This document shows, piece by piece, positions 23,852 to 41,743 of a stretch of DNA of 57,513 nucleotides (the stretch's first letter is position 1; each line of letters starts with the position of its first letter). Location: the NCBI GenBank assembly GCA_964508305.1, contig CAZDSX010000006.1, positions 14,151-71,663 on the forward strand, read 5' to 3'. The stretch is from an uncultured Bacteriovorax sp. (GTDB lineage Bacteria; Bdellovibrionota; UBA1018). The notes below the pieces were generated by a model. The model worked only from the letters and a program-made list of their open reading frames with translations, did no database searches and had not been told where the DNA came from. The translations under genes were made by a program, and so were the position numbers.

Positions 23852-24166
23852 TCAATCCCTGAGCATCTGAATCTGGTCCGTGTCGACGGTCTTGAGGGTG
23901 CGATATAGGGCAATCACCAGCCCCAGCCCGACCGCGGACTCGGCGGCCGCAACCGTGATGATGAAAAAGACGGACATCTGGCCCGAAAGATCCGTCAGTC
24001 GGCTCGAGAACGTCACGAAGGTGAGGTTCACTGCGTTGAGCATGAGCTCAATGGACATCAGGATCACGATGATGTTGCGCCGAACGAGCAGGCCAAACAG
24101 ACCCACAAGAAAGATCGCGGAGCAAAAAGAGAGGATGACCCAGGGTTCAACGGCCGGCAGCGGCAT
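23852..24166 (-). CDS. nuoK: NADH-quinone oxidoreductase subunit K
   Basis: MSIELMLNAVNL and AAAESAVGL (both conserved Glu); AAGGAG SD before ATG 24166. Confidence 0.96.
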   Translation of the reverse strand: MPLPAVEPWVILSFCSAIFLVGLFGLLVRRNIIVILMSIELMLNAVNLTFVTFSSRLTDLSGQMSVFFIITVAAAESAVGLGLVIALYRTLKTVDTDQIQMLRD

Positions 24167-24701: not shown

Positions 24702-25141
24702 TTGTGACCCCTCTGCTCCATGAGAGCTTTCTTGTCGTAGGCCTCGCGCTCTGCCAGGCTCATTTCATAGATGTTGCTGAGCTTGATGGCATCCTTTGGA
24801 CACGCCTCTTCGCACATTCCGCAAAAACAGCAGCGAAGCACGTCGATCTCGAACTTGACCGGGTACTTTTCCTTATCCTCGCGCTCGCCGGCCTCGATGT
24901 GAATGCACTCTGCCGGGCAGACGGTGGGGCAAAGCATGCATGCCGTGCAGTTTTCAACCCCGTTGACCGACTTGATGTAGTGCATGCCTCGGAAACGATC
25001 CGAATAGTTCCGGCGCTCCTCGGGGTACTGGATCGTGACCGTCTTGCCGAATAGAAACTGGCGCATCGTCATCAGCAGTCCCTTGACCACTTCGACGATA
25101 TAAAGGCGCTGGAACAATCCCGGCTTGGCTTTGACGAGCAT
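24698..25141 (-). CDS. nuoI: NADH-quinone oxidoreductase subunit I
   Basis: TIQYPEE...RFRG; two 4Fe-4S motifs, CTACMLCPTVCP and CCFCGMCEEACP. Confidence 0.96.
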   Translation of the reverse strand: MLVKAKPGLFQRLYIVEVVKGLLMTMRQFLFGKTVTIQYPEERRNYSDRFRGMHYIKSVNGVENCTACMLCPTVCPAECIHIEAGEREDKEKYPVKFEIDVLRCCFCGMCEEACPKDAIKLSNIYEMSLAEREAYDKKALMEQRGHK

Positions 25142-25144
25142 GGC

Positions 25145-26278: not shown

Positions 26279-26292
26279 TTGCTCGTGCCGCC

Positions 26293-28988: not shown

Positions 28989-29010
28989 GGGTCTTTTTCC
29001 TTGTTCGATC

Positions 29011-29496
29011 TCAGTGGCCCTTGCCCGAAAGTCCGTCGATCAGCTGATCTACGCCCTGCTGGGTAAGGTTCTCGTGGTAATCATCATTGAGCATCATGGC
29101 GGGCGCGGTGCCGCACGCGCCAAGGCACTCTTCTTCTGCCAGGGTGAATTTTCGGTCGGGAGTGGTTTCGCCGCACTTGATTCCGAGCTTCTTTTCCAGA
29201 TGCTCGACCAACTCATCGGCGCCGCGAAGGCAGCACGCCACGTTCGTGCAAACCTTGATGTGGTACTTGCCCACGGGCTTGAGGTTGTACATCGTGTAGA
29301 AGCTGGCCACTTCGCGCACCTGTGCGGGGTGGATCCCGATGTATTCTCCGATTTCCGCCAGCACTTCCTTCGGAAGCCAGCCATACTCTTCCTGTGCGGC
29401 ATGCAGGGCGGGCAACAGCAGCGCGACCTTGGTCGGATAGCGCGGCTCGAGCTTCTTCATTGCGTCGTAGAACTTCTGTGAAAGCTGCTTTGACAT
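29011..29496 (-). CDS. nuoE: NADH-quinone oxidoreductase subunit E
   Basis: VASFYTMY, CTNVACCLRG, ECLGACG 2Fe-2S ligands; start set at MSKQLSQ. Confidence 0.96.
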   Translation of the reverse strand: MSKQLSQKFYDAMKKLEPRYPTKVALLLPALHAAQEEYGWLPKEVLAEIGEYIGIHPAQVREVASFYTMYNLKPVGKYHIKVCTNVACCLRGADELVEHLEKKLGIKCGETTPDRKFTLAEEECLGACGTAPAMMLNDDYHENLTQQGVDQLIDGLSGKGH

Positions 29497-29498
29497 AA

Positions 29499-30767
29499 TC
29501 AGCGGTCGAGCTCCCCTGCGATGATGTTGATTGAGCCGAGGTTTGCGACCATGTCGGCGAGCTTGGCCCCCTGGGACATTTCGCTGAGGCCCTGGTAGTG
29601 CCACACGGACGGTCCGCGGATCCTCATTCGGTGTGCCCGCGATGCCCCCTTGCTCACGATGTAGAAACCGAGCTCTCCGTTGCTTGCCTCAAAAGTCGTG
29701 TAGGCCTCGCCAGCCGGGACGTCGAATCCGGTCATGAAGAACTTGAAGTGATGGATCAGTCCCTCCATCGTGTTGAACACGACGTCCTTGTCCGGAATGC
29801 GAACGCGCTTGTCCTCCGCCCAGATGGGTCCGGGCTGCAGGCGATCGGCGCACTGGGCGATGATATTGAGGGACTGGAAGATCTCGGCCATTCGGACAAG
29901 GTAACGGTCGAAGACATCGCCGTTCTTGCCAACAGGAACATCAAACTCGACGTTCTTGTAGAACATGACTGGCTGATCGCGCCTGAGGTCCCGGTCAATG
30001 CCCGACGCCCTTGCGGACGGCCCGGAGTAGCTGTAGCGCATGCACTGCTCGCGCGTGAACACCCCCACCCCCTGCGTGCGCTGGCACCAAATCCGGTTAT
30101 TGGTGAGAAGCTTGTCCATTTCCTGCACGGTCTTGCGAGTCCGAAGGACCCAATCCTTGACCTCCTTTTCCCATCCGGGGGGAGCGTCGTGCATCAGGCC
30201 GCCGATTCGCGTGTAGGAAGTCGTGAGCCGAGCACCGCAAAGCTTCTCGATGAGCGTGTAGGCCTCTTCCCGCTGGTGGAACCCATACAAAAAGAAGGAA
30301 AACGCGCCCAGGTCGACTGCGTTGATCCCCACGCAAATCAGGTGGTCGATCACACGCGCCATCTCGGCGCAAATCATCCGGATCCAAACCGCGCGGGTGG
30401 GGACTTCGATTCCCATGAGGCGCTCGACCGACATGGCATAGGTGACGTTGTTGATCAGCGCTGAACAATAGTTCAGGCGATCCGTGTACACGATGAAGTT
30501 GTGGTAGGTGCGGTTTTCCCCGAGCTTTTCCTTGGCCCGGTGGGTGTATCCAAACTCACAGTAGGACTTTTCGATGGTCTCGCCGTTCATCCTGGCACAC
30601 ATGCGGAGCGCGCCGTGCATGGCAGGATGCGTGGGCCCGATGTTCACATAGACCCGGGAGTCCTTCCAGAGATCATCTGGATCACTCTCGTGGGGAACAT
30701 CGACTGTGATCGAGTAGTTCTCGGACTCGGGCAGGCCAAACTCGCGATGATTTACCGGTTTTTCCAT
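29499..30767 (-). CDS. nuoD: NADH-quinone oxidoreductase subunit D
   Basis: GPTHPAMHGALR, DRLNY, EASNGELG, GSINIIAGELDR. Confidence 0.97.
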   Translation of the reverse strand: MEKPVNHREFGLPESENYSITVDVPHESDPDDLWKDSRVYVNIGPTHPAMHGALRMCARMNGETIEKSYCEFGYTHRAKEKLGENRTYHNFIVYTDRLNYCSALINNVTYAMSVERLMGIEVPTRAVWIRMICAEMARVIDHLICVGINAVDLGAFSFFLYGFHQREEAYTLIEKLCGARLTTSYTRIGGLMHDAPPGWEKEVKDWVLRTRKTVQEMDKLLTNNRIWCQRTQGVGVFTREQCMRYSYSGPSARASGIDRDLRRDQPVMFYKNVEFDVPVGKNGDVFDRYLVRMAEIFQSLNIIAQCADRLQPGPIWAEDKRVRIPDKDVVFNTMEGLIHHFKFFMTGFDVPAGEAYTTFEASNGELGFYIVSKGASRAHRMRIRGPSVWHYQGLSEMSQGAKLADMVANLGSINIIAGELDR

Positions 30768-30770
30768 TTC

Positions 30771-31340
30771 TCAGTCCTTGAGCAGGTCGACGTTGATCGG
30801 CATGGCATCCGGGAAGAGCTGGTAGCCGCGAAGCGGGTAGTCCTTGCGGAGCGGGTGCCCCACCCATCGCTCATCCATGAGGATGCGTCGCAGGTCCGGG
30901 TGGCCCTCGAACTTCACTCCAAACATGTCCCAGACCTCACGCTCCGGCCAGTTGGCGCCGTCCCAGACTCCCGTAACCGAGGGAACAGGCTTGCCCTCGT
31001 TCACCTGGACCTTGAAGCGGATGCGCGCACCCGTGGAAAATGACGTCAGGTTGTAGACCACCTCAAATCGCGGCTCTACTTCCTCGTCCGTAGCCGTGAT
31101 GTCGGAGAGGAAGGCATATTCAAAGCCTTCAGACTCCTTTGCAAAGCGCAGCACCTCTACGATTGCCGCGGCCTCAACGTAAACCACCGGAACATCAACG
31201 GGATGCTCTCCGGGCCAGCGGATCTCGGTGATCTTGGAGCCGAACTGCGCCTCAAGCTTCTGGGACTGTTTCTTCCAAAGCTCGGCGTGTTTCTTGGCAA
31301 AATCGCCATAAATGGTCGGAACCGGCGTGCGAATATCCAT
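30771..31340 (-). CDS. nuoC: NADH-quinone oxidoreductase subunit C
   Basis: RFEVVYNL, WPEREVWDMFGVKFEGHPDLRRIL, GHPLRKDYP; TAATG overlap with the nuoB stop at 31340. Confidence 0.96.
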   Translation of the reverse strand: MDIRTPVPTIYGDFAKKHAELWKKQSQKLEAQFGSKITEIRWPGEHPVDVPVVYVEAAAIVEVLRFAKESEGFEYAFLSDITATDEEVEPRFEVVYNLTSFSTGARIRFKVQVNEGKPVPSVTGVWDGANWPEREVWDMFGVKFEGHPDLRRILMDERWVGHPLRKDYPLRGYQLFPDAMPINVDLLKD

Positions 31341-31843
31341 TAGACAGTGCCTCCGCGGGCTTCGCGCTCGCGGCGCTGGGAGTGCGTGTCTCCCTTTTGG
31401 ATCTTCTCCTGGAGCCTCATCAGGGCATGAAGCACGCCCTCGGGCGCCGGGGGACAACCAGGCACGTAGATATCGACCGGAACCACCGTGTCGATGCCCT
31501 GTGTGACGCTATAAACATTGAAGATGCCGCCCGAAGAGGCACAAGCCCCGAACGACATGACCCACTTGGGGTCAGCCATCTGGTCGTAGATATTGCGAAG
31601 CACCGGCGCCATCTTGGCATTCACGATTCCGGCAACGATCAGCAGGTCTGCCTGCCGCGGAGAAAACCGAATTGCCTCCGCGCCAAAGCGGGCCATATCG
31701 TAGTCAGAGCAAAGCGTGGCCATCATCTCGATCCCGCAGCAGCTCGTGCCGAAGGGAAGCGGCCAGAGCGCATTCTTTCGGCCCCAACTGATGAAGTCGT
31801 CCAAGCGGGTGGTCAAGAAACTTGAGGATCCGTCTTTTGCCAT
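31340..31843 (-). CDS. nuoB: NADH-quinone oxidoreductase subunit B
   Basis: [26 protein letters not shown]. Confidence 0.97.
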
Positions 31844-31846
31844 AAT

Positions 31847-32206
31847 CTAATCCCACTCCAGCGCGCCCTTGCCCAGGACATAGAAGTAGCCCACGAGCAG
31901 GATTGCCACGAATACCGCCATCTCCACGAGGATGAAGGCGTTGATTGAAAGATACTTTTTGTAGACCACGGCCCACGGATAAAAGAAGAGCGCCTCTACG
32001 TCGAAGAGCAGGAAGAGGATGGCCACGAGGTAGAATCGCACGCTGAAGCGCTGGTGCGCATCGCCGACCGGATCCATCCCGCACTCAAAGGGCATGTTCT
32101 TTCGCTTGTTCGGGGACTTGGGTCCAAGCAGCGACGAAAGCAGAAGAGCGCCTCCGCCGATGGCTGCCCCAACGGCCATCAGGATCAAAACCGGTAAGTA
32201 GTCCAT
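31847..32206 (-). CDS. nuoA: NADH-quinone oxidoreductase subunit A
   Basis: PFECG, RFYLVAILFLLFDVE, YPWA; start set at MDYLPVL. Confidence 0.96.
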   Translation of the reverse strand: MDYLPVLILMAVGAAIGGGALLLSSLLGPKSPNKRKNMPFECGMDPVGDAHQRFSVRFYLVAILFLLFDVEALFFYPWAVVYKKYLSINAFILVEMAVFVAILLVGYFYVLGKGALEWD

Positions 32207-32243
32207 GGTGAAGGGTTTTATATCTCGGGCGGGAAACAGCGGG

Positions 32244-33725
32244 CTACCAGAAAATAAACCGGAGTGACTGACTCGCCCATCGAAGGAGTGCGTCCGCAAA
32301 AATTGGCGCAAGCACGAGGGGCACACCTAGACAAAAAAGGAACACGCGCTGTTCCAGGGCGGGGGCAGGAGGCTCACCGACCTCAGACATACTCTTTTCG
32401 CCAACAGGCAGAAGCAGCGCCAGGAGAAGACGACCTGCCGCCACTACCGTCAAGGTCATGGCGCCCAGCCCGAGCACGGCAAGCACATGCCACTCCCGGC
32501 GGACTGCCGCCCCGATGAGTGCAAACTTGCCAATGCTGCCGGCAAACGGAGGGAGCCCGAGCCAGGACACCGTGAAACAAAGGAGGGCTACGGCCTCCCA
32601 GGGGCGATCCCTCAGTGAGCCGCGCAGGCCCGAGAGCTCGGCCGTTCCGCTCCGGGCGACCCCAAGGCTCAGGACATACGAAACCCCGGCAAGCGAGACG
32701 AGGTCGACCACGAGGTTGAACAGGATTGCGGCGAGGCCGACTTCTTCAAGGATCAAGAGGCCGAGGAGCAGTAGCCCGGTCTGCGAGAGGGCCACACACG
32801 CAAGGAGACGCTTGGCATTTCCCTGCCTGACGGAAAGAAAAGCGGGCACCAGGAAGGAGAGCCCGGCACAAAACGCGACCCAAAGCGTCCAGTCCCACCC
32901 GCCCAGCGGCAGCCACTTTCCTGGATCCAGTGCCGCTTGCGAGAAGACGACGACCCAGAGTCGCGCGGCGACGGCAAATCCGGCCGCGCGAACCCCGGCG
33001 GCCAGGAACACACCGGCGGGTGAGGGCGCCCCCTGCAGTACGTCGATGGACCAAAGCTGGGACGGAAAAGCGACCATCGCCGAGGAGAGGCCCACAAAGA
33101 GGGTGGCAAAAACCGCGAGACAAAAGGCCGGCCCGGGAGGGGAGAGCACGAGTCGCTGGTGGACCTCGTAGATATTGGCGCTTCCCGTGTGGATGAAGAG
33201 CGCCATTGCTGCAAGGAGCAGGAACACGCCCGAGGTCGAGGCAACGCCAAGCCACTTCACAGCGGCTTCGGCAGACTGGTGGTGGCGCCGACCAAAGCCA
33301 GCCAGAAGGTATCCCACCAGTGATGCCGACTGGATGGAGAGCGCCGAGACAAAGAGGTTCGATGACTCCCCCGCAAGCATGAGTGCCAGCGCACCGACCA
33401 GCACCAGCGCGCAGAACTCGGCCCGGGAACCACCTTCAAGCTCCTCGCCCAGGCAGGCGGAGGAGACGACGACGGATGCCAGGAGCAGGAACACCAGCTT
33501 GAAATAAAGGCTGAAGCCGTCGAGCGAGAGCGCCCCTCCAAACAGCTGGACCGCACCCTGCTGGTAGCTCACGAGCGTCTGGATGAAGGCGCCGCCCAGT
33601 CCAAGGAGTGCCGTCGGAAGAATGAGCCTCACCCTCTCGCCGTGGTGTGCGCTCTCACTGAGCACGAGGCCAATCACGGTGGCCACGATGTAGATCTCCG
33701 GAAGAAGGAGTCCGAGGTCCTTCAT
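32244..33725 (-). CDS. divergent NuoN-like antiporter-type subunit (key charged residues largely substituted)
   Basis: EAAVKW, FPSQLWSIDVLQGAP, KRLLAC and LGLPPFAGSIGKF align with NuoN; LE>IQ, K>A, K>R. Confidence 0.85.
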   Translation of the reverse strand: MKDLGLLLPEIYIVATVIGLVLSESAHHGERVRLILPTALLGLGGAFIQTLVSYQQGAVQLFGGALSLDGFSLYFKLVFLLLASVVVSSACLGEELEGGSRAEFCALVLVGALALMLAGESSNLFVSALSIQSASLVGYLLAGFGRRHHQSAEAAVKWLGVASTSGVFLLLAAMALFIHTGSANIYEVHQRLVLSPPGPAFCLAVFATLFVGLSSAMVAFPSQLWSIDVLQGAPSPAGVFLAAGVRAAGFAVAARLWVVVFSQAALDPGKWLPLGGWDWTLWVAFCAGLSFLVPAFLSVRQGNAKRLLACVALSQTGLLLLGLLILEEVGLAAILFNLVVDLVSLAGVSYVLSLGVARSGTAELSGLRGSLRDRPWEAVALLCFTVSWLGLPPFAGSIGKFALIGAAVRREWHVLAVLGLGAMTLTVVAAGRLLLALLLPVGEKSMSEVGEPPAPALEQRVFLFCLGVPLVLAPIFADALLRWASQSLRFIFW

Positions 33726-33735
33726 GGCTCAGCTC

Positions 33736-35337
33736 TCACTCTTCCTTCTTTTTGGGTTCAATTCCTTCGGCTGGTGCCGCGGAGGGCGAGGGCGCCGGAA
33801 CGGCCGCCGCCGGCGACGTCGCAGTCTTTTCCTCGGATTTCCCTGCAATCAGGGCAACTGCCGCCGGACGAACCCAGTCCAGAAACGGCTTGGGATAGAA
33901 ACCGATCAAGACAAGCAGCACCAGCAGCGGAACCAGAAACCCGCGTTCCCGCGCGGTGAGCTCGGCTTCGGTCGAAGACTTTCGCTCGGATCCTCGCTCG
34001 GGCCCGAGGAAGATCTGCTTGAATACCCCAAACAGGCTGTAGGTCACGAGCATGAATCCTGCACCCACCCCGAAGAGCGAAACGGGGTGGGTGGTGAAGC
34101 TGCCCATCACGATCAGGCTTTGCCCGACGAATCCACCCAGTCCGGGGAGGCCAAGGAAGCCGCCCAGTGCAAGCGCCATCACCGCGGCAGCGGCGGGGGC
34201 GCGCTCCACGAGCCCGCCGGCAGCACCCACTTCGTGGAGCCCCGTTCGATCCGCCAGTGCCCCGAACAGCAGGCCCATTGAGGTGACTGCAAGGCCGATG
34301 GCAAGCTGGTGGTAGATCACTCCAACGAGGGCACTGGGATCCTGGCTTCCCAATCCGATCAGAGAAAGGCCGAGATGCACGAGGACCAGCCGCGAGAGAA
34401 GCCCCGAGAGCCTGGTCTGCGAGAGGATGGTTACCGAGCCGACGAAAAGGTTCACCACTCCCGCAAGCACGACCCAGCTCGAGACCGAGTCAAGGACATC
34501 CTGGAAAAGCAGGTGGGAGACTCGGGCAAACATCATCACCGCCGAGGGCACGACCACTCCGGCCACTGCGACAAATACGGATGCAGGCGCCTCGTTTGCA
34601 AATTCCGCAAACCAGCCGTGGAAAGGCCAAACCGGGGCGCGTAGCGCCAGTCCCAGGCATACGAACAGGAAGGCGAGGTGCGATACGGACACCGAGATTC
34701 CCGCAAGGACGATTTCCTTTGCGGGAACTCCGCCCGAAGACACAAGGTCCCGGATCAGGAAGCTGTGTGGATCCTTCGCATAATAGATGAGGATGAAGGC
34801 CGCAAATAGAAGGCTGTTTCCGATGCTGGAGGTCACCAGCGAGCGAAACGCAGCCTGCTCCTTCTTTTCTCCGCCCCAAATGCCCACAAGAAAAAACACG
34901 GGTACCGCGGTTAGACCCCAGAAAAAGAAGAGCAGGAAAAGGTCTTGTGCCGTCGCCGCGCCCAGGAGGGCGGCCTGAAGGATCAGGAGGAGCGAATAAA
35001 GTCCTCGTGCGCCCCGGGCGCGATCCCACTCGGAGGCAATCAGCACCGGAAAAACAGTGCTGATCAGCATCAGCATCAGGACATTGGTTCCATCGACCGA
35101 AAGCTCGTAATTGATCGCGTAGGACCCGATCCACGGAAGCCTATCCACGAGATGCGGGCCCGCCGTGCCCACATCACCCGCGCCGATCAGGGTCAGCACG
35201 ACGCCACCCAACAGGGCCGATGCGATGCTCGCTCCAAGCGCAAGCCATCGCGCCGAGGCGCCCGGGCTGGCTGCGGCCTGGAAGATGGCGCCCAGCAGGG
35301 GAAGCAGAATCATGCCCGTCAGGAGATGGCTGTTCAC
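33736..35337 (-). CDS. divergent NuoM-like subunit (key charged residues substituted)
   Basis: LPWIGSYAINYELSVDG, FLVGIWGG, LRAPVWPFHGW and LPGLGGFVGQ align with NuoM. Confidence 0.88.
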   Translation of the reverse strand: MNSHLLTGMILLPLLGAIFQAAASPGASARWLALGASIASALLGGVVLTLIGAGDVGTAGPHLVDRLPWIGSYAINYELSVDGTNVLMLMLISTVFPVLIASEWDRARGARGLYSLLLILQAALLGAATAQDLFLLFFFWGLTAVPVFFLVGIWGGEKKEQAAFRSLVTSSIGNSLLFAAFILIYYAKDPHSFLIRDLVSSGGVPAKEIVLAGISVSVSHLAFLFVCLGLALRAPVWPFHGWFAEFANEAPASVFVAVAGVVVPSAVMMFARVSHLLFQDVLDSVSSWVVLAGVVNLFVGSVTILSQTRLSGLLSRLVLVHLGLSLIGLGSQDPSALVGVIYHQLAIGLAVTSMGLLFGALADRTGLHEVGAAGGLVERAPAAAAVMALALGGFLGLPGLGGFVGQSLIVMGSFTTHPVSLFGVGAGFMLVTYSLFGVFKQIFLGPERGSERKSSTEAELTARERGFLVPLLVLLVLIGFYPKPFLDWVRPAAVALIAGKSEEKTATSPAAAVPAPSPSAAPAEGIEPKKKEE

Positions 35338-35346
35338 AGGGTTCCT

Positions 35347-37239
35347 CTAGCGATTGATGTGATTCCAAAAATGTAGCAACAGCGCGAGCGTGAAGCCAAT
35401 TGTAAACAACAGATAGCCCTGCACGGAGCCGCTCACCAGCAGCTGCAATCCCTTGGCTGGAATTTCCACTGCCGCGCGCGTGGCTGCGTCCATCCTTGCG
35501 CGCGTCCATTGATCAAATCGTGAGAATCCCGCAATCAGCGCTGCTCCGATCGCGCTCGCCCTGGCAAGCACGCCAAGCACGGCGCGGGCACGAATCAAGC
35601 GATCGCCGAATGCGGGAGCCGAGCGAAGCGCCCCTACTGCCCAGTCCACGAGGCGGGTCACGCCAAAACCCGTGGCTGCAAACTTCCAGCTGAGCGCGCC
35701 GGATCGGAGCACCTTCTCCGGAACCTGGAATAGAAGCAGGAGCGCGAGTGCCACCATCCAGGCCCAGGAAATCAGCTGACCGGTCTGGCCTTGAGCCTGG
35801 CCGCTTGAGCCAAACAGCTCCGCGCCAAGCGAGGGCCCCACTCCCAGGTCACGCGAGGCGGTGAACACCCCGAGCCACTCTCCGGTCCAGAATATCGCAG
35901 AAGAAAACAGCAGGATCACCGTCGGCGCGGTCAGGCGCCACCCCGTGCTCCAGGTCTCTTCCCCGCGGAGCTGATTGCGTGCAGCCGGAGAGAGCGTGCA
36001 GAGCGCCGCAACGGAGACCATGACCCATCCAAGAACAAAGCAGGCCCCGTCCAGTGCGCGATCAATGCTCGTCAGGCAGGAAACAAGGACCGCCGCTCCC
36101 GCGAAACACAGCCCACCCGACCAGGAGAGGGCGATGAATGCCTTGACCAGCTTCTCAGGAAGCTCAGCCTCCTTTGCTCCCGTGTCGGCGGGACCGCGAA
36201 GGACCAGGGCCGTTGCCCACGCCAGTGAACCAAAGACAAATGCCGCAGTTCCTCCGGCCTGCCTGCCGGCAAGCAGCATGACCGCCGCCGAAAGCATGGT
36301 TGCCGCACCAGAAAGGGCAACAAGTCCGCCGCCGGAGAGGGCCGAAGAGATGGCGGACCATGCCGTGAGCGCGGCAAGGAGCAGTGCCGGGGCCACGAGC
36401 CAGGGCACCAGCCCGCTCGAAACCAGATCAGGCGTCAGCCGGTAGATCATCGCGAGTCCCGACCACGCCGATGCGCACGAGACGAGGAGGGCGCTGGTCA
36501 GTGGCCCCTTGAATCTGGCCGGGGCCTGAACCACCCACCCCATGGTCGGAAAGGCGCCGGCCTGCAAGAGCGCGCCGAAAAAAAGCATCGCCAGACCAAC
36601 GGGCTGTTCTGCGGCGGAAAAACCGTTTGTTTCCGTCCAAGAGGTCGTGCCCCCGCCCGCAAGGATGGCCGCCAGGCCGAGGGCGGACATGAGGATTCCC
36701 AGCGCTCGCTCCCGCGAAAAAGAGGTGGCCATGTCCGCGCCGTCTTGTCCGCTCCTGCCGGAGTGGACCAGCACGATCCAGCCGGAGAGACCCGAGACGA
36801 GCTGTCCCAGCAGAATCACCCAGAGACTGGTGGCCCACCAGGAGAGCGTCACACCACACAGCGCAAGCGTGGCCGCGCCCTGGGCGAAGCCGATGCGGCC
36901 CTTGGGGCTGGAAACAATGGGCTCAAACAGGAACACATATCCAAGGATCAGCGCCATGATGCCGCCGGCGGCAACGCCTGCCCGAGTCGCGATCACGCCC
37001 GCTTCGACGCTGGCTCCGGGGGATGGCAGAGTGAAGTAAGATAGAGACCAGGAGGCCGCATCCCCAGAGCCGATGCTCGCGGCACCGATTCCCAGAAAAA
37101 GCAGAACCAGAAGCCAAGTCACCAGGGGGGCGACGGAGCGAAGGATTGACCAGCGAGGCGAGCCCCTCAGCGAAGAGACGCCGGCAAGCGCCCCCATCAC
37201 GAGGGCCAGGGCAAAAACCCAGGGAAAGGCATTAATCAT
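35347..37239 (-). CDS. highly divergent NuoL-like subunit
   Basis: Many TM helices, NuoL-like length and operon position; LLQAGAFPTMGWV and PLTSALL align with GKSAQVPLYVWL and PTPVSALI; C-terminal SGSVQGYLL resembles NGSIQVYA. Confidence 0.7.
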   Translation of the reverse strand: MINAFPWVFALALVMGALAGVSSLRGSPRWSILRSVAPLVTWLLVLLFLGIGAASIGSGDAASWSLSYFTLPSPGASVEAGVIATRAGVAAGGIMALILGYVFLFEPIVSSPKGRIGFAQGAATLALCGVTLSWWATSLWVILLGQLVSGLSGWIVLVHSGRSGQDGADMATSFSRERALGILMSALGLAAILAGGGTTSWTETNGFSAAEQPVGLAMLFFGALLQAGAFPTMGWVVQAPARFKGPLTSALLVSCASAWSGLAMIYRLTPDLVSSGLVPWLVAPALLLAALTAWSAISSALSGGGLVALSGAATMLSAAVMLLAGRQAGGTAAFVFGSLAWATALVLRGPADTGAKEAELPEKLVKAFIALSWSGGLCFAGAAVLVSCLTSIDRALDGACFVLGWVMVSVAALCTLSPAARNQLRGEETWSTGWRLTAPTVILLFSSAIFWTGEWLGVFTASRDLGVGPSLGAELFGSSGQAQGQTGQLISWAWMVALALLLLFQVPEKVLRSGALSWKFAATGFGVTRLVDWAVGALRSAPAFGDRLIRARAVLGVLARASAIGAALIAGFSRFDQWTRARMDAATRAAVEIPAKGLQLLVSGSVQGYLLFTIGFTLALLLHFWNHINR

Positions 37240-37273
37240 GGGCTGCCCCCTCTCGGGCCATCCAGGCGCGCAT

Positions 37274-37570
37274 CTAGTGCCTCATCCTTCCTAGCTCGGA
37301 CATCTCGGGGCGCGATCTCAGGAGATGGAGCCTGACTGCGAAGCCCAGTCCTACCAATGCCTGGATGTGGGCAAAAACCATCACGAGAAGTGCCATGGAG
37401 CGCGCGCGATCCAGAAACCCAGGCGCCGCTCCCGGGTCCGCCATCAAGACCAGGGCGAGAACAAGGCCCGAGAAGAAGAGCTGTACCCCAACCAGCACGC
37501 CGAGCAGGCTGCGCTGGGTGAGTACCGCAAAAGTCGAAAGCGAAAACAGGGCGGCGAGCGCAATGGTCAT
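37274..37570 (-). CDS. divergent NuoK-like subunit (both Glu replaced by Gln)
   Basis: 98 aa, 3 TM; GVQLFFSGLVL vs SIELMLNAVNL, AHIQALVGLG vs AAAESAVGLG. Confidence 0.8.
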   Translation of the reverse strand: MTIALAALFSLSTFAVLTQRSLLGVLVGVQLFFSGLVLALVLMADPGAAPGFLDRARSMALLVMVFAHIQALVGLGFAVRLHLLRSRPEMSELGRMRH

Positions 37571-38097
37571 GGACCACCCCCGATGTCGGGATTTCTCTCG
37601 ACCCCGCCCGCACGTGTGATCACTCCCGTGGCAATCGCAGCCGCAAGCGCCACTCCCGCAAGAAGCTCGACCAAGACGAATCTCTCGTCAAAGTCCGTCG
37701 AACCGCGAATGGGCGAGGCTCCGGTGCCTTCGGCCACCGTGGTGCCCGCGGTGGCAAGCTCAAGCAACCACCACACCACCACTCCAACGCCGATGCTTGC
37801 CAGTGCGTGGAATGAGCGGGCAAGAGGGCTGCGGGAGGGCCCATTCACCGCAACCGATACACCCACTCCAAGGAGGTCTGAGTGGAAAAAATACACTGCC
37901 GCCACAAGTGTCGAAGCGATCCAAAGCAGAACAGCCAGTGTCTCTGCGCCCGCGGAGAGCAGGATCGATCCTCCGGCCAACTGGCCGAGCCAAAGTGAGA
38001 TGACCGCCCGCCTGGGCTCCCCCGCCGTGCACACTGCTGCGGCCGAACCAAGGACGACGGCCGATGCAAACCAGACCCCGGGCGAATCAACGATCAT
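37567..38097 (-). CDS. highly divergent NuoJ-like subunit
   Basis: 176 aa, about 5 TM, lies between the I-like and K-like genes with ATGA overlaps; FVLVELLAGVALAAAIA resembles PFELTSVLLLAGIVGA. Confidence 0.65.
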   Translation of the reverse strand: MIVDSPGVWFASAVVLGSAAAVCTAGEPRRAVISLWLGQLAGGSILLSAGAETLAVLLWIASTLVAAVYFFHSDLLGVGVSVAVNGPSRSPLARSFHALASIGVGVVVWWLLELATAGTTVAEGTGASPIRGSTDFDERFVLVELLAGVALAAAIATGVITRAGGVERNPDIGGGP

Positions 38098-38636
38098 TCA
38101 ACACCGCCCGCTTCTGACTGAAGCTCTCGCTGTCGGCGCCAGCGCTCGCGCATTTCCCTCGAAATGGGTCCTCGCCCATAGGCAGCCCGCAGATCGGAGG
38201 CCTGCTCTGCGGCGCCCTCATAGCGCCGGGAGTGGGTGAGCGAGGTAGGCTCACAGGCCTCAACGCACAGGCCGCAAAACAGGCACTTCGAGTAATCGAT
38301 GTTGAACGTGCTGACCCAGAGCTTTCCGGGCTTTGGACCTTCCTCGGTATGGATCTCAAAACAGCCCGTAGGACACACTTCCGAACAGGCATAGCAACCG
38401 GTGCAGCGCTGGATGTCGTTCTTCAGGAGACCCCGACTCCGGGTGGGCAGCTCGTCCGGCGTTCGCGAAGAGACCGGATCGGGATAGAGCTCGGTGACCT
38501 CCTTTTTGGCGTCAGAGCTCGAAAGAAGATAGGAGAGCCCCGTGCTGAGGCCGCGCCAGAGGGTCAGGAGCGACCTGAACAGCGATGCAAAATAGCCGCG
38601 AAAGCTGCCAAAAAACGTGCTCTCCGTCGTCCTCAT
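38094..38636 (-). CDS. NuoI-like 2x[4Fe-4S] subunit
   Basis: VTELYPD...RSRG, CTGCYACSEVCP and CLFCGLCVEACEP; start at ATG 38636 overlapping the H-like stop. Confidence 0.9.
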   Translation of the reverse strand: MRTTESTFFGSFRGYFASLFRSLLTLWRGLSTGLSYLLSSSDAKKEVTELYPDPVSSRTPDELPTRSRGLLKNDIQRCTGCYACSEVCPTGCFEIHTEEGPKPGKLWVSTFNIDYSKCLFCGLCVEACEPTSLTHSRRYEGAAEQASDLRAAYGRGPISREMRERWRRQRELQSEAGGVE

Positions 38637-39646
38637 GCAGGCCCCCCGGAAAATAGGCTGGCCCCCACCAGTGCGATCAGGGCGAGCGGCGCCAACACCC
38701 TCCACGCAAAGTCATGTGCCTGATCGGAGCGGACTGAAGGAAGCGTCCTTGAAAGGAGTGAAACCAAAAGCAGAAGTACCAGTGTCTTGATGGCGACCAC
38801 TCCCGCTCCCAGCATCATTGCCACGGGGAGGTCCTGGCTTGCCCCCGAGACCAGCAGCTGCGGAAGGGCTGCACCCCCGAAATAAACTTTTACTCCAAGA
38901 AGAAACCAACAGAAAACGGCCACCCGCTGGCTCCAGCGAACCCAGATCAGGCGAATTCCCGCCTCTCCGGGAAATCCCGCCACCACCCACGCCAGCGGCT
39001 CGGAGTCGCGCTGGAACGGACGCGCCGAGAACATCAGCAGTCCGGCGGCGAAGAAAACCGCCGCAGAAATGGCCGTAAATGGGCTCGAAAACACGAGCCA
39101 CCGCCAGGGCGCCCAACCCTGGGCCTGGTCAAACCGCTCCCACGCGAGACCTCCAGCAGCAAGGCCCGCATGCAGGAACGCAATCAGCGCCGCCGGAAAC
39201 CCAGCAACAGCAAGCGCCACCTGGCGGATCGACCCGAACCGGGATTCAACCGCCCCGTCTCTCCAGCTTAGCAGGAGACCCAGCCACGCAAAGGCGAGCG
39301 CGAAGAACAGGGATAGCAGGGCTGCCATGGGCGCATCGAGAAGCGGCGCTCCCGGAACCACAGGAGTAATCGACAAGAGAGCAAACAAGGGAACACCCTG
39401 CAGCCACCAGAGGGCGGGCCCGCGATCCGCCTTCGATCCGGGCCGGATCTTCTGGAGCAGTCGGAGGAACTCGGCAAGGGGCTGCAGCCAGCCGCCCTGC
39501 CCCGCGCGGCTCGGACCCACGCGGGCCTGCATGTCGGCACCCACCTTGGCGTCCATCCAGGACCAGAGATAAACCCCGGGCAGGACGAACACCAAGAGGA
39601 TCAGGAGGCTCTCGGTGGCAGCAGTGACCCAGAAGGATTCCATCAC
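38633..39646 (-). CDS. divergent NuoH-like subunit
   Basis: KVGADMQARVGPSRAG..GWLQPLAE, RPFQ, YFGG, LPSVRSDQ; many acidic residues lost. Confidence 0.85.
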   Translation of the reverse strand: MMESFWVTAATESLLILLVFVLPGVYLWSWMDAKVGADMQARVGPSRAGQGGWLQPLAEFLRLLQKIRPGSKADRGPALWWLQGVPLFALLSITPVVPGAPLLDAPMAALLSLFFALAFAWLGLLLSWRDGAVESRFGSIRQVALAVAGFPAALIAFLHAGLAAGGLAWERFDQAQGWAPWRWLVFSSPFTAISAAVFFAAGLLMFSARPFQRDSEPLAWVVAGFPGEAGIRLIWVRWSQRVAVFCWFLLGVKVYFGGAALPQLLVSGASQDLPVAMMLGAGVVAIKTLVLLLLVSLLSRTLPSVRSDQAHDFAWRVLAPLALIALVGASLFSGGPA

Positions 39647-40794
39647 TTGTCCACCTCGGTGATCTGAAGGTCGAGGCTGTGAAGCAGGAGCGAGAGGTCT
39701 TGAATCGGCGCATCCGCCAGGTACTCGGGGAGGGCCCGGTGGAGCGCCATTGAAGGAGTGAAGAACTCCACCTCCGTGGGGCCAGGCTTTTCTCCGTCCG
39801 AAGCAAGAGCAACCGAGAGGCGGCCGCGTGGCGACTCCACTGCTGCTGTTGCGCGTCCCGCTGGAAGCGGCGCGGACTCCTGCTGCTTCTGTCGATAGGG
39901 TCCCGCTGGAAGGCGCTGACTCAGCTCCATCAGCAGCTGGGCGCTTTGCACGATTTCGTGGAGACGATAAACAAACCGATGATGCGCGTCTCCTGCGCTC
40001 ACGACGGCGTCGACCGTGCCGATTTCGGTGAGCCTTGCACCAAAGTGCGGTCGCCCCTCATCCATGACCCTCAGGTCGGCCGAGGGAGAGAAAACTTTTG
40101 CTGGAATGCCGGTGATCTTGTGCCTGTCGACCATTGACCTGCCGATCACGCCCCGTCCCCCAACTCGCCTGACAAAGGCCTCGTTGTAGGTCAACAGGTC
40201 GTTGTATTCCTTCACCCGCTGGAGGACCTGCTGGCTGGTCTCCTGCACGCGCTCCAGAAATCCATCCGTCACATCCTCGCGGACCCCGCCCGGCAACAGA
40301 AATGCGAGCGCATGCCTCGCCCCACTCAAGAGCTCCAGAAGGTCGAGAATCCGTTCACGCTCGCGCAACAGGAGGTGGAACGCCGCCTCAGAGCCTGCTG
40401 CGCGTGAGACCTTGGCAAGATGAAGGAGGTGCGAGGAGATCCGGGAAAGCTCTCCAAGAATGACCCGGATTCCGCGGCCACGCGCCGGCGTCTCAATTCC
40501 CCCAAGCTCCTCGGCGGCGAGGCAAAAGCACCACTCATAAAACAGGGCCGCCTCTGGGTCGATGCGATCCAGGAAGGGCATCGCTCCACGCCAAGTCTGG
40601 CGCGTGAGGATGGCCTCAACCGAGCGGCGAGTGAAGCCCGTCTCAATCTCCGCCTGGCGCACCAGTTCGCCGTCGAGCTGGAGGTGGATACGGTAGGCTC
40701 CGGATAAGTCAGAGTGGAATGGCCCGATGGACCAGGCGATGGGCCTGGACCGAACGATCTCTCCGCCGCTTGGGAATGGCGCTCCACCGCTCAT
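39643..40794 (-). CDS. divergent NuoD-like subunit (no NuoC fusion, no NiFe Cys, quinone-site His/Tyr substituted)
   Basis: GPFHSDLSGAYR, DRIDPE, ELSRISSHL, ESPRGRL, HSLDLQITEVDK; start at ATG 40794 overlapping the B-like stop. Confidence 0.88.
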   Translation of the reverse strand: MSGGAPFPSGGEIVRSRPIAWSIGPFHSDLSGAYRIHLQLDGELVRQAEIETGFTRRSVEAILTRQTWRGAMPFLDRIDPEAALFYEWCFCLAAEELGGIETPARGRGIRVILGELSRISSHLLHLAKVSRAAGSEAAFHLLLRERERILDLLELLSGARHALAFLLPGGVREDVTDGFLERVQETSQQVLQRVKEYNDLLTYNEAFVRRVGGRGVIGRSMVDRHKITGIPAKVFSPSADLRVMDEGRPHFGARLTEIGTVDAVVSAGDAHHRFVYRLHEIVQSAQLLMELSQRLPAGPYRQKQQESAPLPAGRATAAVESPRGRLSVALASDGEKPGPTEVEFFTPSMALHRALPEYLADAPIQDLSLLLHSLDLQITEVDK

Positions 40795-41318
40795 CGAAGA
40801 TCCCACTCGTCCGTTTCCATCGTTGCTGCACGATCGGGATGCCGGGGCAGCTTGCGCGCGACGATTTTTCGGCCCCGGATCTTTTCCTGGAGCCGGATCA
40901 GGCCATCCATGATCGCCTCTGGCCTGGGGGGGCAGCCGGGGACGAAGACATCCACGGGGATCACGCCCGAAAGGCCCGCGACCGTCTCGCCGGCCGTTGC
41001 GTCAGGCCCAAAGGCCCCGCCAGAGCAGGCGCAGGACCCGACTGCAATCACATATCGCGGCGTTGGCATCTGCTCGTAGACCCGGCGCACTTCGGCGGCC
41101 GCCTTCTGGGTCAGCGCTCCTGAGACGATCAGGAGGTCTGAGAATATCGGATCTTTTTCAGGCAGTGCGCCGAACCGCTCAAGGTCGTACCTGCACCCCG
41201 TGACCTGGAGCAGTTCGTCGGCACAGCATCCGGTATTCACGGCAAAATATCGCAGGGCCGAGGCCTGTGCCCATCCAAGCACCTCGGCAAGCGTCGACGA
41301 AATGTAGCCGCCGCTCAT
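40791..41318 (-). CDS. NuoB-like subunit with intact N2 ligands
   Basis: GCCADE, YDLERFG, GSCACSGG, VPGCPPRPEA. Confidence 0.92.
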   Translation of the reverse strand: MSGGYISSTLAEVLGWAQASALRYFAVNTGCCADELLQVTGCRYDLERFGALPEKDPIFSDLLIVSGALTQKAAAEVRRVYEQMPTPRYVIAVGSCACSGGAFGPDATAGETVAGLSGVIPVDVFVPGCPPRPEAIMDGLIRLQEKIRGRKIVARKLPRHPDRAATMETDEWDLR

Positions 41319-41743
41319 GGCCCACCCCCGGCGCCGCCCTCGGGATGTGTCTCATCAGCCTCCCGATACACGCGATCATGCCAGCGGAGATCTCCCTTGC
41401 GGTTGGCATAGACCAGGGCGGTGGCCCCGACGAGCGTAACCGAGAGGACAAGAAGGGTGGTGGCCGGGCTTCCGCCCAGCGCAGCAAACGGCACCAGCAG
41501 TACGAACGGAAGAGCGAGCAGGCCTGCCAGCTGCACGGCGGTGAAATATCGGGTGTTGATGGATTGAAGAACGGGGATGTCGCGCTCGCTCGGCGGGGCC
41601 TCTGCCGCCGCGCCATCTCCCCTGGGGCCAAGACCCGCCAGTCGCGTCAGAAAATGCAGCAGCACCGGTACCGCAAGGGCCACGGCTACGGTGACAAAAA
41701 CAACGCGATAGGCATCCCAGCCATGGGACGCAACCTGATCCAT
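41315..41743 (-). CDS. divergent NuoA-like subunit
   Basis: 3 TM, first gene of the cluster; SINTRYFTAV..LLALPFVLLVPFA and NRKGDLRW align with RFYLVAILFLLFDVE..YPWA and KGALEW. Confidence 0.75.
   Translation of the reverse strand: MDQVASHGWDAYRVVFVTVAVALAVPVLLHFLTRLAGLGPRGDGAAAEAPPSERDIPVLQSINTRYFTAVQLAGLLALPFVLLVPFAALGGSPATTLLVLSVTLVGATALVYANRKGDLRWHDRVYREADETHPEGGAGGGP

What the first reader, a model, noticed from the sequence alone, without database searches (positions are those of the whole stretch)
32244..39646. Systematic charge neutralisation of the proton-translocation axis across all seven membrane subunits
Seen by alignment to the in-window canonical paralogues (E. coli numbering). 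K-like: E36>Q and E72>Q, both CAG codons (37481-37483, 37361-37363), in gap-free alignments. M-like: E144>G (FWG), K234>R, K265>P, E407>Q. N-like: E133>Q, K217>A, K247>R, TM His>Q twice; only K395 and the EAAxK lysine are kept. L-like: E144>L, D178>G, K229>Q (less certain further C-terminal). A-like: D79/E81 lost. J-like: Y59 motif lost. H-like: SYE Glu lost, RPFD>RPFQ. Established: these residues are required for coupling and pumping. Inference: repeated isosteric E>Q and K>R/Q changes look like selection to keep the fold while removing titratable groups, which random drift would not be expected to produce.
Basis: partly seen in the sequence, partly recalled or inferred. Interest (0 to 1): 0.85.

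Follow-up and report, generated by a model that had tools for sequence, protein, structure and literature searches.

The report
Charge-stripped second complex I cluster
Directly upstream of a normal respiratory complex I operon sits a second, ancient ten-gene copy, found in about 50 related bacterial species, that keeps the complex I fold and iron-sulfur wire but has lost nearly every residue needed to bind quinone and pump protons, so it is a selected, non-pumping relative of complex I whose job is unknown.

Summary
On the minus strand, 32244-41743 encodes ten genes (A' B' D' H' I' J' K' L' M' N'), 37 nt upstream of a complete canonical nuoA-N operon. Alignments to E. coli confirm almost every substitution listed, including K' E36Q and E72Q, both CAG.

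The cluster is not a decaying copy. The same cluster, always followed by canonical nuoA, occurs in about 50 Bdellovibrionota species, including named members of GTDB class UBA1018. All ORFs are intact and dN/dS is at most 0.04-0.21.

The replacement residues are themselves conserved: K' Q36 41/45; M' R234 37/37 and P265 34/37; N' R247 33/36. They are spelled with all synonymous codons.

Coupling residues were kept at 2 of 26 positions, against 30 of 54 other invariant charged positions (p=3e-5).

All 12 Fe-S cysteines of B' and I' are invariant. The quinone-site His and Tyr of D' are both Pro.

The cluster descends from an 11-subunit-type complex I, not from the neighbouring operon. Residues were lost in steps.

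Best reading: a redox-competent complex I derivative that cannot pump protons in the canonical way. Its acceptor and role are unknown. "Selection to remove charges" is only partly supported; loss of function followed by re-stabilisation fits better.

The parts
41315..41743 (-). A' (NuoA-like, 142 aa). K46, E51, D79 and E81 are all replaced.
   Evidence: No Pfam or NCBIfam hit. hhalign against canonical NuoA gives prob 98.2%. Alignment; orthologue table.
40791..41318 (-). B' (NuoB-like, 175 aa). The four Cys ligands of cluster N2, plus E67 and P159, are conserved.
   Evidence: Pfam PF01058, E 1e-27. It is the only subunit that passes a curated NCBIfam cut-off. Cys are 47-48 of 48 in orthologues.
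39643..40794 (-). D' (NuoD/49-kDa-like, 383 aa from the ATG at 40794). The quinone-site His is Ser here (Pro in 42/49 orthologues) and the Tyr is Pro (46/49). It has a deletion of about 25 aa relative to canonical NuoD.
   Evidence: Closest solved sequences are complex I 49-kDa subunits, E 5e-43. AF2 model has pLDDT 88.5 and TM about 0.89.
38633..39646 (-). H' (NuoH-like, 337 aa). E157, R209, E216, E218 and E228 are lost. R46, K70, R148, K274, R293 and D295 are kept.
   Evidence: Pfam PF00146.
38094..38636 (-). I' (NuoI-like, 180 aa from the ATG at 38636). Both CxxCxxCxxxC motifs (N6a and N6b) are intact.
   Evidence: All 8 Cys are 47/47 in orthologues.
37567..38097 (-). J' (NuoJ-like, 176 aa). 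Y59 is Ser.
   Evidence: No Pfam hit. hhalign prob 99.3%..
37274..37570 (-). K' (NuoK-like, 98 aa). E36>Q at 37481-37483 and E72>Q at 37361-37363, both CAG.
   Evidence: Q36 is 41/45 and Q72 is 38/44 in orthologues. Both CAG and CAA are used.
35347..37239 (-). L' (NuoL-like, 630 aa). This is the fastest-evolving subunit. E144, D178, K229, H254, H334, H338, K342, K399 and D400 are all lost. Only one charged residue (R267) is at least 80% conserved in the family.
   Evidence: No Pfam or NCBIfam hit. hhalign prob 99.1% over 539 columns, reaching residue 605 of E. coli NuoL..
33736..35337 (-). M' (NuoM-like, 533 aa). E144>G, K234>R, K265>P and E407>Q. It is the most constrained membrane subunit, with 130 columns at least 85% conserved.
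   Evidence: AF2 model has pLDDT 92 and TM 0.88-0.93 to solved NuoM.
32244..33725 (-). N' (NuoN-like, 493 aa). E133>Q, K217>A, H224>Q and K247>R. K395, E154 and K158 are kept.
32207..32243 (-). 37-nt spacer between the N' stop and the canonical nuoA start. No terminator-like site lies in it, and terminator-like sites over the whole scanned stretch are no more frequent than in shuffles, so co-transcription is inferred.
   Evidence: The same junction is found in 36 of 36 related loci.
18824..32206 (-). Canonical 14-gene nuoA-N operon, the constant downstream partner. It has every key residue intact and supplies the only NuoC, E, F and G in the locus.

Best explanation
The region is a complete second complex-I-type gene set (A' B' D' H' I' J' K' L' M' N'). 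It descends from an 11-subunit (N-module-less) complex I. An ancestor of a Bdellovibrionota lineage, class UBA1018 where named, placed it directly upstream of the ordinary nuo operon, and it has been kept there ever since.

Shown:
- The proteins keep the complex I folds, gene order and translational coupling.
- All ten genes are under purifying selection.
- The N6a-N6b-N2 iron-sulfur chain is fully preserved.
- The two quinone-headgroup proton donors of NuoD are replaced, both by Pro in most members.
- The carboxylates of the E-channel are replaced (H E157, A D79, K E36/E72).
- The Glu/Lys/His axis of all three antiporter-like subunits is replaced.
- Several replacements (Gln, Arg, Pro) are now conserved in their own right.

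Inferred:
- The assembly still forms and still carries electrons along its Fe-S arm. It cannot couple this to proton translocation by the known mechanism, and it cannot reduce quinone at the canonical site.
- It therefore most likely works as a non-electrogenic, non-energy-conserving redox complex, co-expressed with the pumping complex I.
- Because it lacks E, F and G, and in this lineage also C, it plausibly borrows NuoC/E/F/G from the operon that always follows it. Alternatively it uses a ferredoxin-type donor like its 11-subunit ancestors.
- The charged residues were lost because the pump function was given up. Buried charges were then purged and the sites re-stabilised. They were not lost because neutralisation was itself the target of selection.
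For: - Layout and residues.
- Orthologous clusters with the same order, intact ORFs and canonical nuoA next in 36/36 loci.
- Three of the loci are named members of class UBA1018.
- dN/dS 0.04-0.21 with dS saturated.
- Replacement residues conserved and spelled with all synonymous codons.
- Coupling residues preferentially lost (2/26 against 30/54, p=2.6e-5).
- Other structural charged residues kept (M D84, D135, R273; N D70, E154, K158, D229, R256, K295, R296; H R148, K274, R293, D295).
- All 12 Fe-S cysteines conserved, and B' and I' are the most conserved subunits (90-92% identity to the nearest relative).
- Quinone-site His and Tyr both replaced by Pro.
- Fold kept.
- Origin from the 11-subunit type and stepwise loss.
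- Literature: a single D79N change in NuoA already cripples pumping and turnover, and the residues lost here are the ones named for the E-channel, the ion pairs and the L/M/N channels (PMC13324432).
Against: - There are no expression, assembly or activity data. Every functional step is inference.
- With the His and Tyr gone there is no identified electron acceptor, so 'redox complex' lacks a reaction.
- Fe-S cysteines can be kept for folding alone.
- A ten-subunit machine is a costly way to do uncoupled electron transfer.
- Most family members keep a swapped E322/H407 pair in M', plus K395 in N' and some family-specific acidic residues (M' E103, N' E377). Some residual or unorthodox ion handling is therefore not excluded.
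- M', N' and H' are far more constrained than a mere scaffold would seem to need. This hints at an unrecognised activity in the membrane arm.
- Sharing of NuoC/E/F/G rests only on gene adjacency.
Confidence: 0.5

Rival explanations
1. Non-catalytic partner. The complex is a pseudo-enzyme whose role is structural or regulatory for the canonical complex I encoded just downstream. It might act as a membrane scaffold, a supercomplex or assembly platform, or a redox or pmf sensor. The Fe-S clusters would be retained only for folding.
For: - Invariable tandem linkage to the canonical operon (36/36).
- Loss of both the acceptor site and the pump residues.
- C' has been lost in the window subclade without visible harm.
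- K', A', J' and L' are conserved only at fold level, with 5-14 columns at least 85% conserved.
Against: - The peripheral Fe-S subunits B' and I' are the most conserved parts, and all 12 Cys are invariant. A scaffold could dispense with them.
- M' has 130 strongly conserved columns, including family-specific polar residues in transmembrane context.
Confidence: 0.25
2. It is still an energy converter, but with a rewired mechanism or a different ion or substrate. It would use family-specific residues in place of the canonical axis: the E322/H407 swap in M', K395 in N', new Glu in M' and N', and conserved Gln networks.
For: - H322/E407 covaries to E322/H407 in most members.
- There are family-specific invariant E103 (M') and E377 (N') and polar residues Q121, Q131, C129, S143 and N174 in M'.
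- M', N' and H' are under strong constraint.
Against: - There is no conserved acidic residue at all in K', and only one conserved charged residue in all of L'.
- The TM5 Glu / TM7 Lys ion pairs are broken in L', M' and N'. Arg replaces Lys and cannot relay protons.
- The E-channel link to the redox site is fully hydrophobic (A' I/L, H' A/S/F).
- The window's own lineage has lost even the swapped pair (H/Q).
Confidence: 0.12
3. Adaptive neutralisation. Selection acted directly to remove titratable groups isosterically while preserving the fold.
For: - Several changes are E>Q or K>R/Q and are now fixed and conserved.
- Losses are enriched at coupling sites.
Against: - Most replacements are not isosteric.
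- Basal lineages show different residues at the same sites, and losses are staggered over the tree.
- All residue classes diverged strongly.
- The window's subunits show a general Lys-to-Arg and Tyr/Asn-poor composition shift.
- Purging of useless buried charges is expected once function is lost.
Confidence: 0.1
4. It is a decaying duplicate or an annotation artefact: pseudogenes drifting after duplication.
For: - Identity to canonical subunits is very low.
- A', J' and L' escape Pfam and NCBIfam.
Against: - All ten ORFs are intact, with 4-nt start/stop overlaps, in about 50 species spanning GC 41-66%.
- dN/dS is far below 1.
- There are more than 120 90%-identity clusters of M' in metagenomes.
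- The AF2 models are confident.
Confidence: 0.02

Closest known systems
Proton-pumping respiratory complex I (NDH-1, Nuo14), e.g. E. coli and the in-window canonical operon
   Same: - Homologous subunits A, B, D, H, I, J, K, L, M and N in the same gene order.
- The same folds for M and D: TM 0.88-0.93 to solved NuoM chains, and TMq 0.86-0.90 to solved NuoD/49-kDa chains.
- The same N2, N6a and N6b cysteine ligands.
   Different: - No E, F or G, and no C in this lineage.
- The quinone-site His and Tyr are replaced.
- The E-channel carboxylates and the Glu/Lys/His axis of L, M and N are replaced.
- Nine of ten subunits fall below NCBIfam curated cut-offs.
11-subunit complex I without an N-module (Nuo11 / NDH-1-like type; the Calditrichota, Planctomycetota and related clusters L008, L057-L086 used here as outgroup)
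   Same: - Closest relatives in the B+D tree.
- The same ABCDHIJKLMN content (C' is still present in most family members).
- No dedicated NADH module.
- A long NuoI N-terminus.
   Different: The outgroup clusters keep every coupling and quinone-site residue examined (invariant in 15-22 sequences). The cluster here has lost them, and it is always fused in tandem to a Nuo14 operon.
Ehr (energy-converting-hydrogenase-related) complexes, including Mbx/MBS
   Same: They belong to the complex I / group-4 hydrogenase superfamily. Their large subunit has neither the ancestral catalytic metal site nor, here, the derived quinone site. Their acceptor is unknown or unusual.
   Different: - Ehr are defined as relatives of group-4 [NiFe] hydrogenases and are presumed to be ion-translocating through Mrp-like subunits (PMC6349859).
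- D' is clearly on the complex I branch: E 5e-43 to 49-kDa subunits, against 2e-31 for MBS and 2e-28 for MBH.
- The cluster has the full A/H/J/K/L/M/N arm, with its charges removed.
Laboratory point mutants of complex I (e.g. NuoA D79N, NuoK E36/E72, NuoM E144/K234)
   Same: The same positions are changed, often to the same kind of residue (carboxylate to amide). Such mutants keep assembly but lose pumping and turnover (PMC13324432).
   Different: Here dozens of such changes coexist naturally across seven subunits. They have been fixed for a very long time and are maintained by selection.

Membership tests
Proton-pumping complex I (NDH-1) | Core membrane and Q-module subunits A, B, C, D, H, I, J, K, L, M, N encoded together | tested here: inconclusive
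   Ten of eleven are present in canonical order. NuoC is absent in the window because B' and D' overlap. A C' is present in most related clusters.
Proton-pumping complex I (NDH-1) | NADH-oxidising N-module (NuoE, F, G) | tested here: not met
   There are none within 32244-41743. The only copies belong to the canonical operon downstream.
Proton-pumping complex I (NDH-1) | Cys ligands of Fe-S clusters N2 (NuoB) and N6a/N6b (NuoI) | tested here: met
   All 12 Cys are present in the window and in 47-48 of 47-48 orthologues.
Proton-pumping complex I (NDH-1) | Quinone-headgroup His and Tyr in NuoD (E. coli CD H224/Y273 in RefSeq numbering; H228/Y277 in PMC13324432) | tested here: not met
   The window has Ser and Pro. 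Orthologues have Pro 42/49 and Pro 46/49. The residues are invariant in 68 functional sequences.
Proton-pumping complex I (NDH-1) | E-channel carboxylates (NuoH E157, NuoA D79, NuoK E36/E72) | tested here: not met
   Retention is 0% at all four positions across orthologues.
Proton-pumping complex I (NDH-1) | TM5 Glu / TM7 Lys pair and the central Lys/His/Glu axis in NuoL, M and N | tested here: not met
   - L': 0 of 9 kept.
- M': E144, K234, K265 and H348 lost; E407 changed to Q or H.
- N': E133, K217 and K247 lost; only K395 kept (K 27/36, R 7/36).
Sources.
Proton-pumping complex I (NDH-1) | Scores above curated family cut-offs (NCBIfam Nuo models) | tested here: not met
   - Only B' passes (166.6 against 116).
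- Below cut-off: D' 233.6 (cut-off 360), H' 82 (305), I' 69 (113), K' 25 (57), M' 261.5 (263.8) and N' 165 (333).
- A', J' and L' have no hit.
Source.
Proton-pumping complex I (NDH-1) | Redox-driven proton translocation | not testable with these tools
   This needs proteoliposome or whole-cell assays.
11-subunit N-module-less complex I (Nuo11 type) | Phylogenetic affiliation of the Q-module subunits with Nuo11-type clusters rather than Nuo14 | tested here: met
   In an NJ tree of B+D (106 sequences), the family is monophyletic and sister to 21 of the 22 outgroup Nuo11-type clusters, apart from the 31 canonical Bdellovibrionota nuo. Mean identity is 39-49% against 35-40%. This is a distance method only, with no support values.
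11-subunit N-module-less complex I (Nuo11 type) | Conserved pump and quinone-site residues, presumed functional | tested here: not met
   These residues are invariant in the outgroup clusters and lost here.
Ehr complexes | [quoted passage not shown] | tested here: not met
   D' has no Cys at the N-terminal or C-terminal motif positions. However, it is closest to complex I 49-kDa subunits, not to hydrogenases: E 5e-43 against 2e-28 for MBH and 1e-19 for FHL. The fold search is topped by complex I.
Mrp-type cation/proton antiporter | MrpA/D-type subunits with the conserved Glu/Lys, plus MrpE/F/G | tested here: not met
   The Glu/Lys positions are replaced. No Mrp-specific families appear among the ten proteins. 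The M' model matches NuoM better than MrpD: TMq 0.88 against 0.80-0.83.

The most novel reading that the evidence does not exclude
The complex I architecture has been repurposed. A still redox-active Fe-S arm drives or gates a membrane arm that no longer moves protons. The strongly conserved M', N' and H' subunits would carry out a different task: handling a non-ionic or lipophilic substrate, acting as a redox-controlled conformational device, or directly regulating the adjacent pumping complex I. That would be a new functional class within the complex I superfamily, and a natural 'all-charges-removed' control for the coupling mechanism.
Probability: 0.2. Interest if true: 0.9.

Novelty: new variant of a known kind. 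Interest (0 to 1): 0.75.

Why it matters
How quinone chemistry drives proton pumping 200 Å away in complex I is still debated. It is studied one point mutant at a time. Here nature supplies a full-size complex I relative in which the quinone proton donors, the E-channel and all three antiporter axes are replaced, while the fold and the Fe-S chain stay under selection.

Purified or expressed, it would be a ready-made uncoupled reference structure. It would also test which features of the scaffold are independent of proton transfer.

It raises a biological question as well. Why does a whole bacterial lineage pay for a ten-subunit membrane complex that cannot pump, and always transcribe it ahead of the real pump?

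Public annotation calls these proteins plain NuoM, NuoD and so on. Metabolic reconstructions of these genomes therefore probably over-count energy-conserving complex I.

Tried and rejected
- **Pseudogene or drift remnant.** Rejected on intact ORFs in about 50 species, dN/dS far below 1 and conserved replacement residues.
- **Recent duplication of the neighbouring operon.** Rejected by the B+D tree and the identity matrix.
- **Hydrogenase or Ehr-type large subunit.** Rejected by PDB sequence and fold searches and by the absence of Cys motifs.
- **K>R as a mere GC effect.** Unlikely, because R234 and R247 hold across loci with GC 41-66% and use both CGN and AGR codons. A general Lys-to-Arg shift does exist in the window's proteins.
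- **Charged residues lost more than other conserved residues in general.** Not true when taken class by class: acids 33%, Lys/His 32%, aromatics 33%, aliphatics 22%. The enrichment appears only when coupling residues are separated from structural charged residues.
- **dN/dS against more distant relatives.** Uninformative, because dS was saturated or undefined.
- **Word-based homologue search for L'.** It found only one relative, so no deep alignment or model for L' could be made. hhalign was used instead.
- **Terminator and promoter scans.** They gave nothing above shuffled expectation.
- **Six literature searches.** Five looked for a description and found none of a naturally charge-neutralised complex I paralogue. 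The sixth led to the only paper on this lineage, which does not mention nuo. The library lacks most subscription journals, so absence is not proof.
- **Degenerate NuoM-like proteins outside the family.** One example (L091) turned out to be orphan antiporter-like genes of a spore-former, which is a different system.


Full report
**Layout.** All genes of interest are on the minus strand. A complete canonical nuoA-N operon occupies 18824-32206. Immediately upstream lie ten further complex-I-like genes.

| Gene | Coordinates |
|---|---|
| A' | 41315-41743 |
| B' | 40791-41318 |
| D' | 39643-40794 |
| H' | 38633-39646 |
| I' | 38094-38636 |
| J' | 37567-38097 |
| K' | 37274-37570 |
| L' | 35347-37239 |
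| M' | 33736-35337 |
| N' | 32244-33725 |

There is no C, E, F or G homologue. Neighbouring genes overlap by 4 nt (ATGA) or are 9-34 nt apart. The N' stop lies 37 nt from the canonical nuoA start. Terminator-like sites are no more frequent than in shuffled sequence. mfd is transcribed divergently upstream.

Pfam recognises B', D', H', I', K', M' and N'. A', J' and L' are missed by Pfam and NCBIfam. Profile-profile comparison shows them to be full-length NuoA, NuoJ and NuoL homologues, with probability 98-99%.

**Check of the observation.** I fetched the E. coli K-12 nuo operon and aligned each E. coli subunit with the canonical and the divergent in-window subunit.
- K' Gln30 and Gln70 align with E36 and E72. 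They are CAG codons at exactly the coordinates given.
- The canonical in-window subunits carry the E. coli residue at every key position examined (NuoJ E80, which is not conserved, differs). The organism therefore has an ordinary pump as well.

**It is a conserved family, not a one-off.** A homology search with D' found a graded series of orthologues at 87% down to about 36% identity, from Bdellovibrionota and Oligoflexia MAGs.
- Context look-ups showed the same arrangement elsewhere: mfd, then A' B' (C') D' H' I' J' K' L' M' N', then nuoA B C D.
- A scan of one genome per GTDB species with a D' alignment returned about 48 Bdellovibrionota loci, followed by 11-subunit nuo clusters of Calditrichota, Planctomycetota and others.
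- With iterative HMMs I recovered all ten genes, intact and in the same order, in every locus long enough to hold them.
- In 36 of 36 loci with sequence beyond N', canonical nuoA follows directly.
- Three of the loci (FG-1, CAIRTR01, UBA1018) are named members of GTDB class UBA1018. That class is proposed as 'Bdellonasia': low-O2, possibly predatory, some magnetotactic, about 52 genomes (PMC13200544). The paper says nothing about nuo.
- A search with M' found more than 120 clusters at 42-62% identity in metagenomes, all annotated simply as NuoM.
- An exhaustive HMMER search found about 55 50%-identity representatives with the family signature. One very divergent member sits in the same tandem context.

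**Are the changes fixed?** Yes. The comparison set was E. coli, the window's canonical subunit and 15-22 outgroup 11-subunit clusters. In that set all the key residues are invariant.

| Subunit | Position (E. coli) | State in the family |
|---|---|---|
| K' | E36 | Q in 41/45 |
| K' | E72 | Q in 38/44 |
| M' | E144 | G, A or S |
| M' | K234 | R in 37/37 (62/62 in the metagenome set) |
| M' | K265 | P in 34/37 (61/62) |
| M' | E407 | H or Q |
| N' | E133 | Q in 26, L in 10 |
| N' | K217 | Q in 23 |
| N' | K247 | R in 33/36 |
| N' | K395 | kept (K 27, R 7) |
| L' | K229 | Q in 34/45 |
| L' | E144, D178, H254, H334, H338, K342, K399, D400 | never kept |
| A' | K46, E51, D79, E81 | lost |
| J' | Y59 | S in 32 |
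| H' | E157, R209, E216, E218, E228 | lost |

The replacements are encoded by all synonymous codons: six for R234, four for P265 and for both Pro in D', and CAG plus CAA for the Gln. The new residues have therefore been held by selection through saturating synonymous change.

**Selection.** Against the nearest relative (L089), amino-acid identities are 63-92%. dN/dS is 0.04-0.21 for the eight genes where dS could be estimated, with dS already above 1.4. B' and D' were too saturated. B' and I' are the most conserved, and J' and L' the least. Within the family the number of columns at least 85% conserved is 130 for M', 82 for N' and 57 for H'. It is only 13 for L', 5 for K', 14 for A' and 14 for J'.

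**Is the loss specific?** Taken class by class it is not. Canonical-invariant acids (33%) and Lys/His (32%) are retained about as often as aromatics (33%). These are simply very divergent proteins.

I then split the invariant charged positions into coupling residues and the rest. The coupling residues are the E-channel, the ion pairs, the L/M/N channel residues and the NuoA loop, as named in the literature (e.g. PMC13324432). Of these, 2 of 26 are retained, against 30 of 54 for the rest (Fisher p=2.6e-5), and against 104 of 310 uncharged invariant positions (p=0.007).

Structural charged residues are kept:
- M: D84, D135, R273, R365, R463, E464.
- N: D70, E104, E154, K158, D229, R256, K295, R296.
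- H: R46, K70, R148, K274, R293, D295.

K' has no conserved acidic residue at all, and L' has a single conserved charged residue. Those two statements do not depend on the alignment to canonical sequences. A crude count of residues in hydrophobic context shows Lys/His falling from about 22 to about 9 across the seven subunits. Acids fall from about 24 to about 17 and Arg rises slightly.

**The redox arm.** All four N2 cysteines of B' and all eight cysteines of I' are conserved in essentially every orthologue. In D' the two residues that bind and protonate the quinone headgroup are replaced. The His is Pro in 42/49 (Ser in the window) and the Tyr is Pro in 46/49. Neighbouring structural residues are kept, namely the first His of the loop, R250, E308, D367 and the C-terminal D..DR. 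D' also lacks about 25 residues present in canonical NuoD.

By sequence, D' is closest to complex I 49-kDa subunits (E 5e-43), well ahead of MBS, MBH and FHL large subunits. It has no cysteines at the hydrogenase metal motifs.

**Folds.**
- An AF2 model of M', built on 62 family sequences, has pLDDT 92 and pTM 0.91 and shows breaks in the helices where canonical TM7 and TM12 are discontinuous. It superposes on solved NuoM/Nqo13/ND4 chains with TM 0.88-0.93 and rmsd about 2 Å, ahead of NuoL, NuoN or MrpD.
- A D' model has pLDDT 88.5 and matches NuoD/49-kDa chains with TM about 0.89.

**Origin and order of events.** In a neighbour-joining tree of concatenated B+D (106 sequences), the family is monophyletic. 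It is sister to 21 of the 22 11-subunit clusters used as outgroup, and it is separate from the canonical Bdellovibrionota nuo. This was a distance method without support values.

Four basal loci (L007, L049, L052, L053) are intermediates. Some carry odd taxon labels. They keep the D' Tyr and, in M and N, K265, H322, H348, E407 and E133. They have already lost the D' His (to Ile), the K' glutamates (to T/I and T/L), A' D79/E81 and the L' axis. The core clade lost the rest. Most of its members carry a swapped E322/H407 pair in M', where canonical enzymes have H322/E407. The window's subclade then neutralised that pair as well (H/Q) and deleted C'.

Basal and core lineages carry different residues at the same sites. 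That argues for release of constraint followed by independent replacement, and later re-stabilisation, rather than one directed 'isosteric' sweep.

**Interpretation.** What is shown is a conserved, selected, complex-I-shaped assembly. It has an intact Fe-S wire, no canonical quinone site, no E-channel and no antiporter axis. Single changes at these positions, such as NuoA D79N, already cripple pumping and turnover in E. coli (PMC13324432). Canonical redox-driven proton pumping can therefore be excluded with high confidence.

My best inference (confidence about 0.5) is a redox-competent but non-electrogenic complex, co-expressed with the true pump. It may borrow NuoC/E/F/G from the operon that always follows it. 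The rivals are:
- a non-catalytic scaffold or regulator (about 0.25);
- a rewired ion or substrate handler that uses family-specific residues (about 0.12);
- decay, which is effectively refuted.

The acceptor of the Fe-S chain, the donor and the physiological role are unknown.

**Comparison and novelty.** It works like none of the known members. It is not a functional Nuo14 or Nuo11, because defining residues were tested and not met, and nine of ten subunits fall below NCBIfam cut-offs. It is not an Ehr complex either, because its large subunit is on the complex I branch rather than the hydrogenase branch.

Five literature searches looked for a description and found none. A sixth led to the one paper on this lineage, which does not discuss nuo. 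The library is incomplete. I rate it a new variant of a known kind, of high interest to complex I specialists.

Noticed in passing
window 26293-27729 (-): The canonical NuoG is only 478 aa. It has the N-terminal 2Fe-2S and 4Fe-4S domains but only a stub of the molybdopterin-like C-terminal domain. That is unusually short for a Nuo14 operon.
   Followed up: partly
M' orthologues (A10 and loci L015-L056); window M' residues 321 and 406: The canonical NuoM pair H322/E407 is swapped to E322/H407 in most family members (37/62 and 19/39). It is then neutralised to H/Q or Q/Q in the window's subclade. This is clear covariation between two axis positions.
   Followed up: partly
between B' and D': window 40791-40806; related loci such as L002 9495-10004: A very divergent NuoC-like gene (C', about 150-180 aa) sits between B' and D' in most family members. 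It has been cleanly deleted in the window's subclade (L004, L006, L009, L010, L011, L013, L027, L089).
   Followed up: partly
L091 8261-12249 (CP115484.1): A spore-forming bacterium has orphan NuoL-like and NuoM-like genes right after the ATP synthase operon. The M-like protein has degenerate axis residues (ERQQIT). This is a different, unrelated case of an antiporter-like protein without the usual charges.
   Followed up: no
L090 (GCA_964589335.1) 99-11185: This is a much more divergent member of the same family (M' 28% identical, signature FRQQVF). It is again followed by nuoA-F, so the family is broader than the 48 loci first found.
   Followed up: no
window 32244-41743 compared with 18824-32206: The divergent membrane subunits are depleted in Lys (1.4% against 2.6%), Tyr (1.0% against 3.3%) and Asn. 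They are enriched in Arg and Ala relative to the canonical ones in the same genome. GC is about 0.63 against about 0.59.
   Followed up: partly
window 12913-14460 (+) and 15779-18769 (-): An HTTM-domain membrane protein and a 996-aa multi-TPR protein lie just downstream of nuoN. A seryl-tRNA synthetase lies between them.
   Followed up: no
L052 and L053: The least degenerate ('basal') clusters come from MAGs labelled candidate division WWE3 and Deltaproteobacteria. The labels look doubtful given the Bdellovibrionota-like synteny.
   Followed up: no
window 40794 and 38636: The longest-ORF calls overshoot the likely true starts. D' probably starts at the ATG at 40794 and I' at the ATG at 38636, each forming an ATGA overlap with the preceding stop.
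   Followed up: yes
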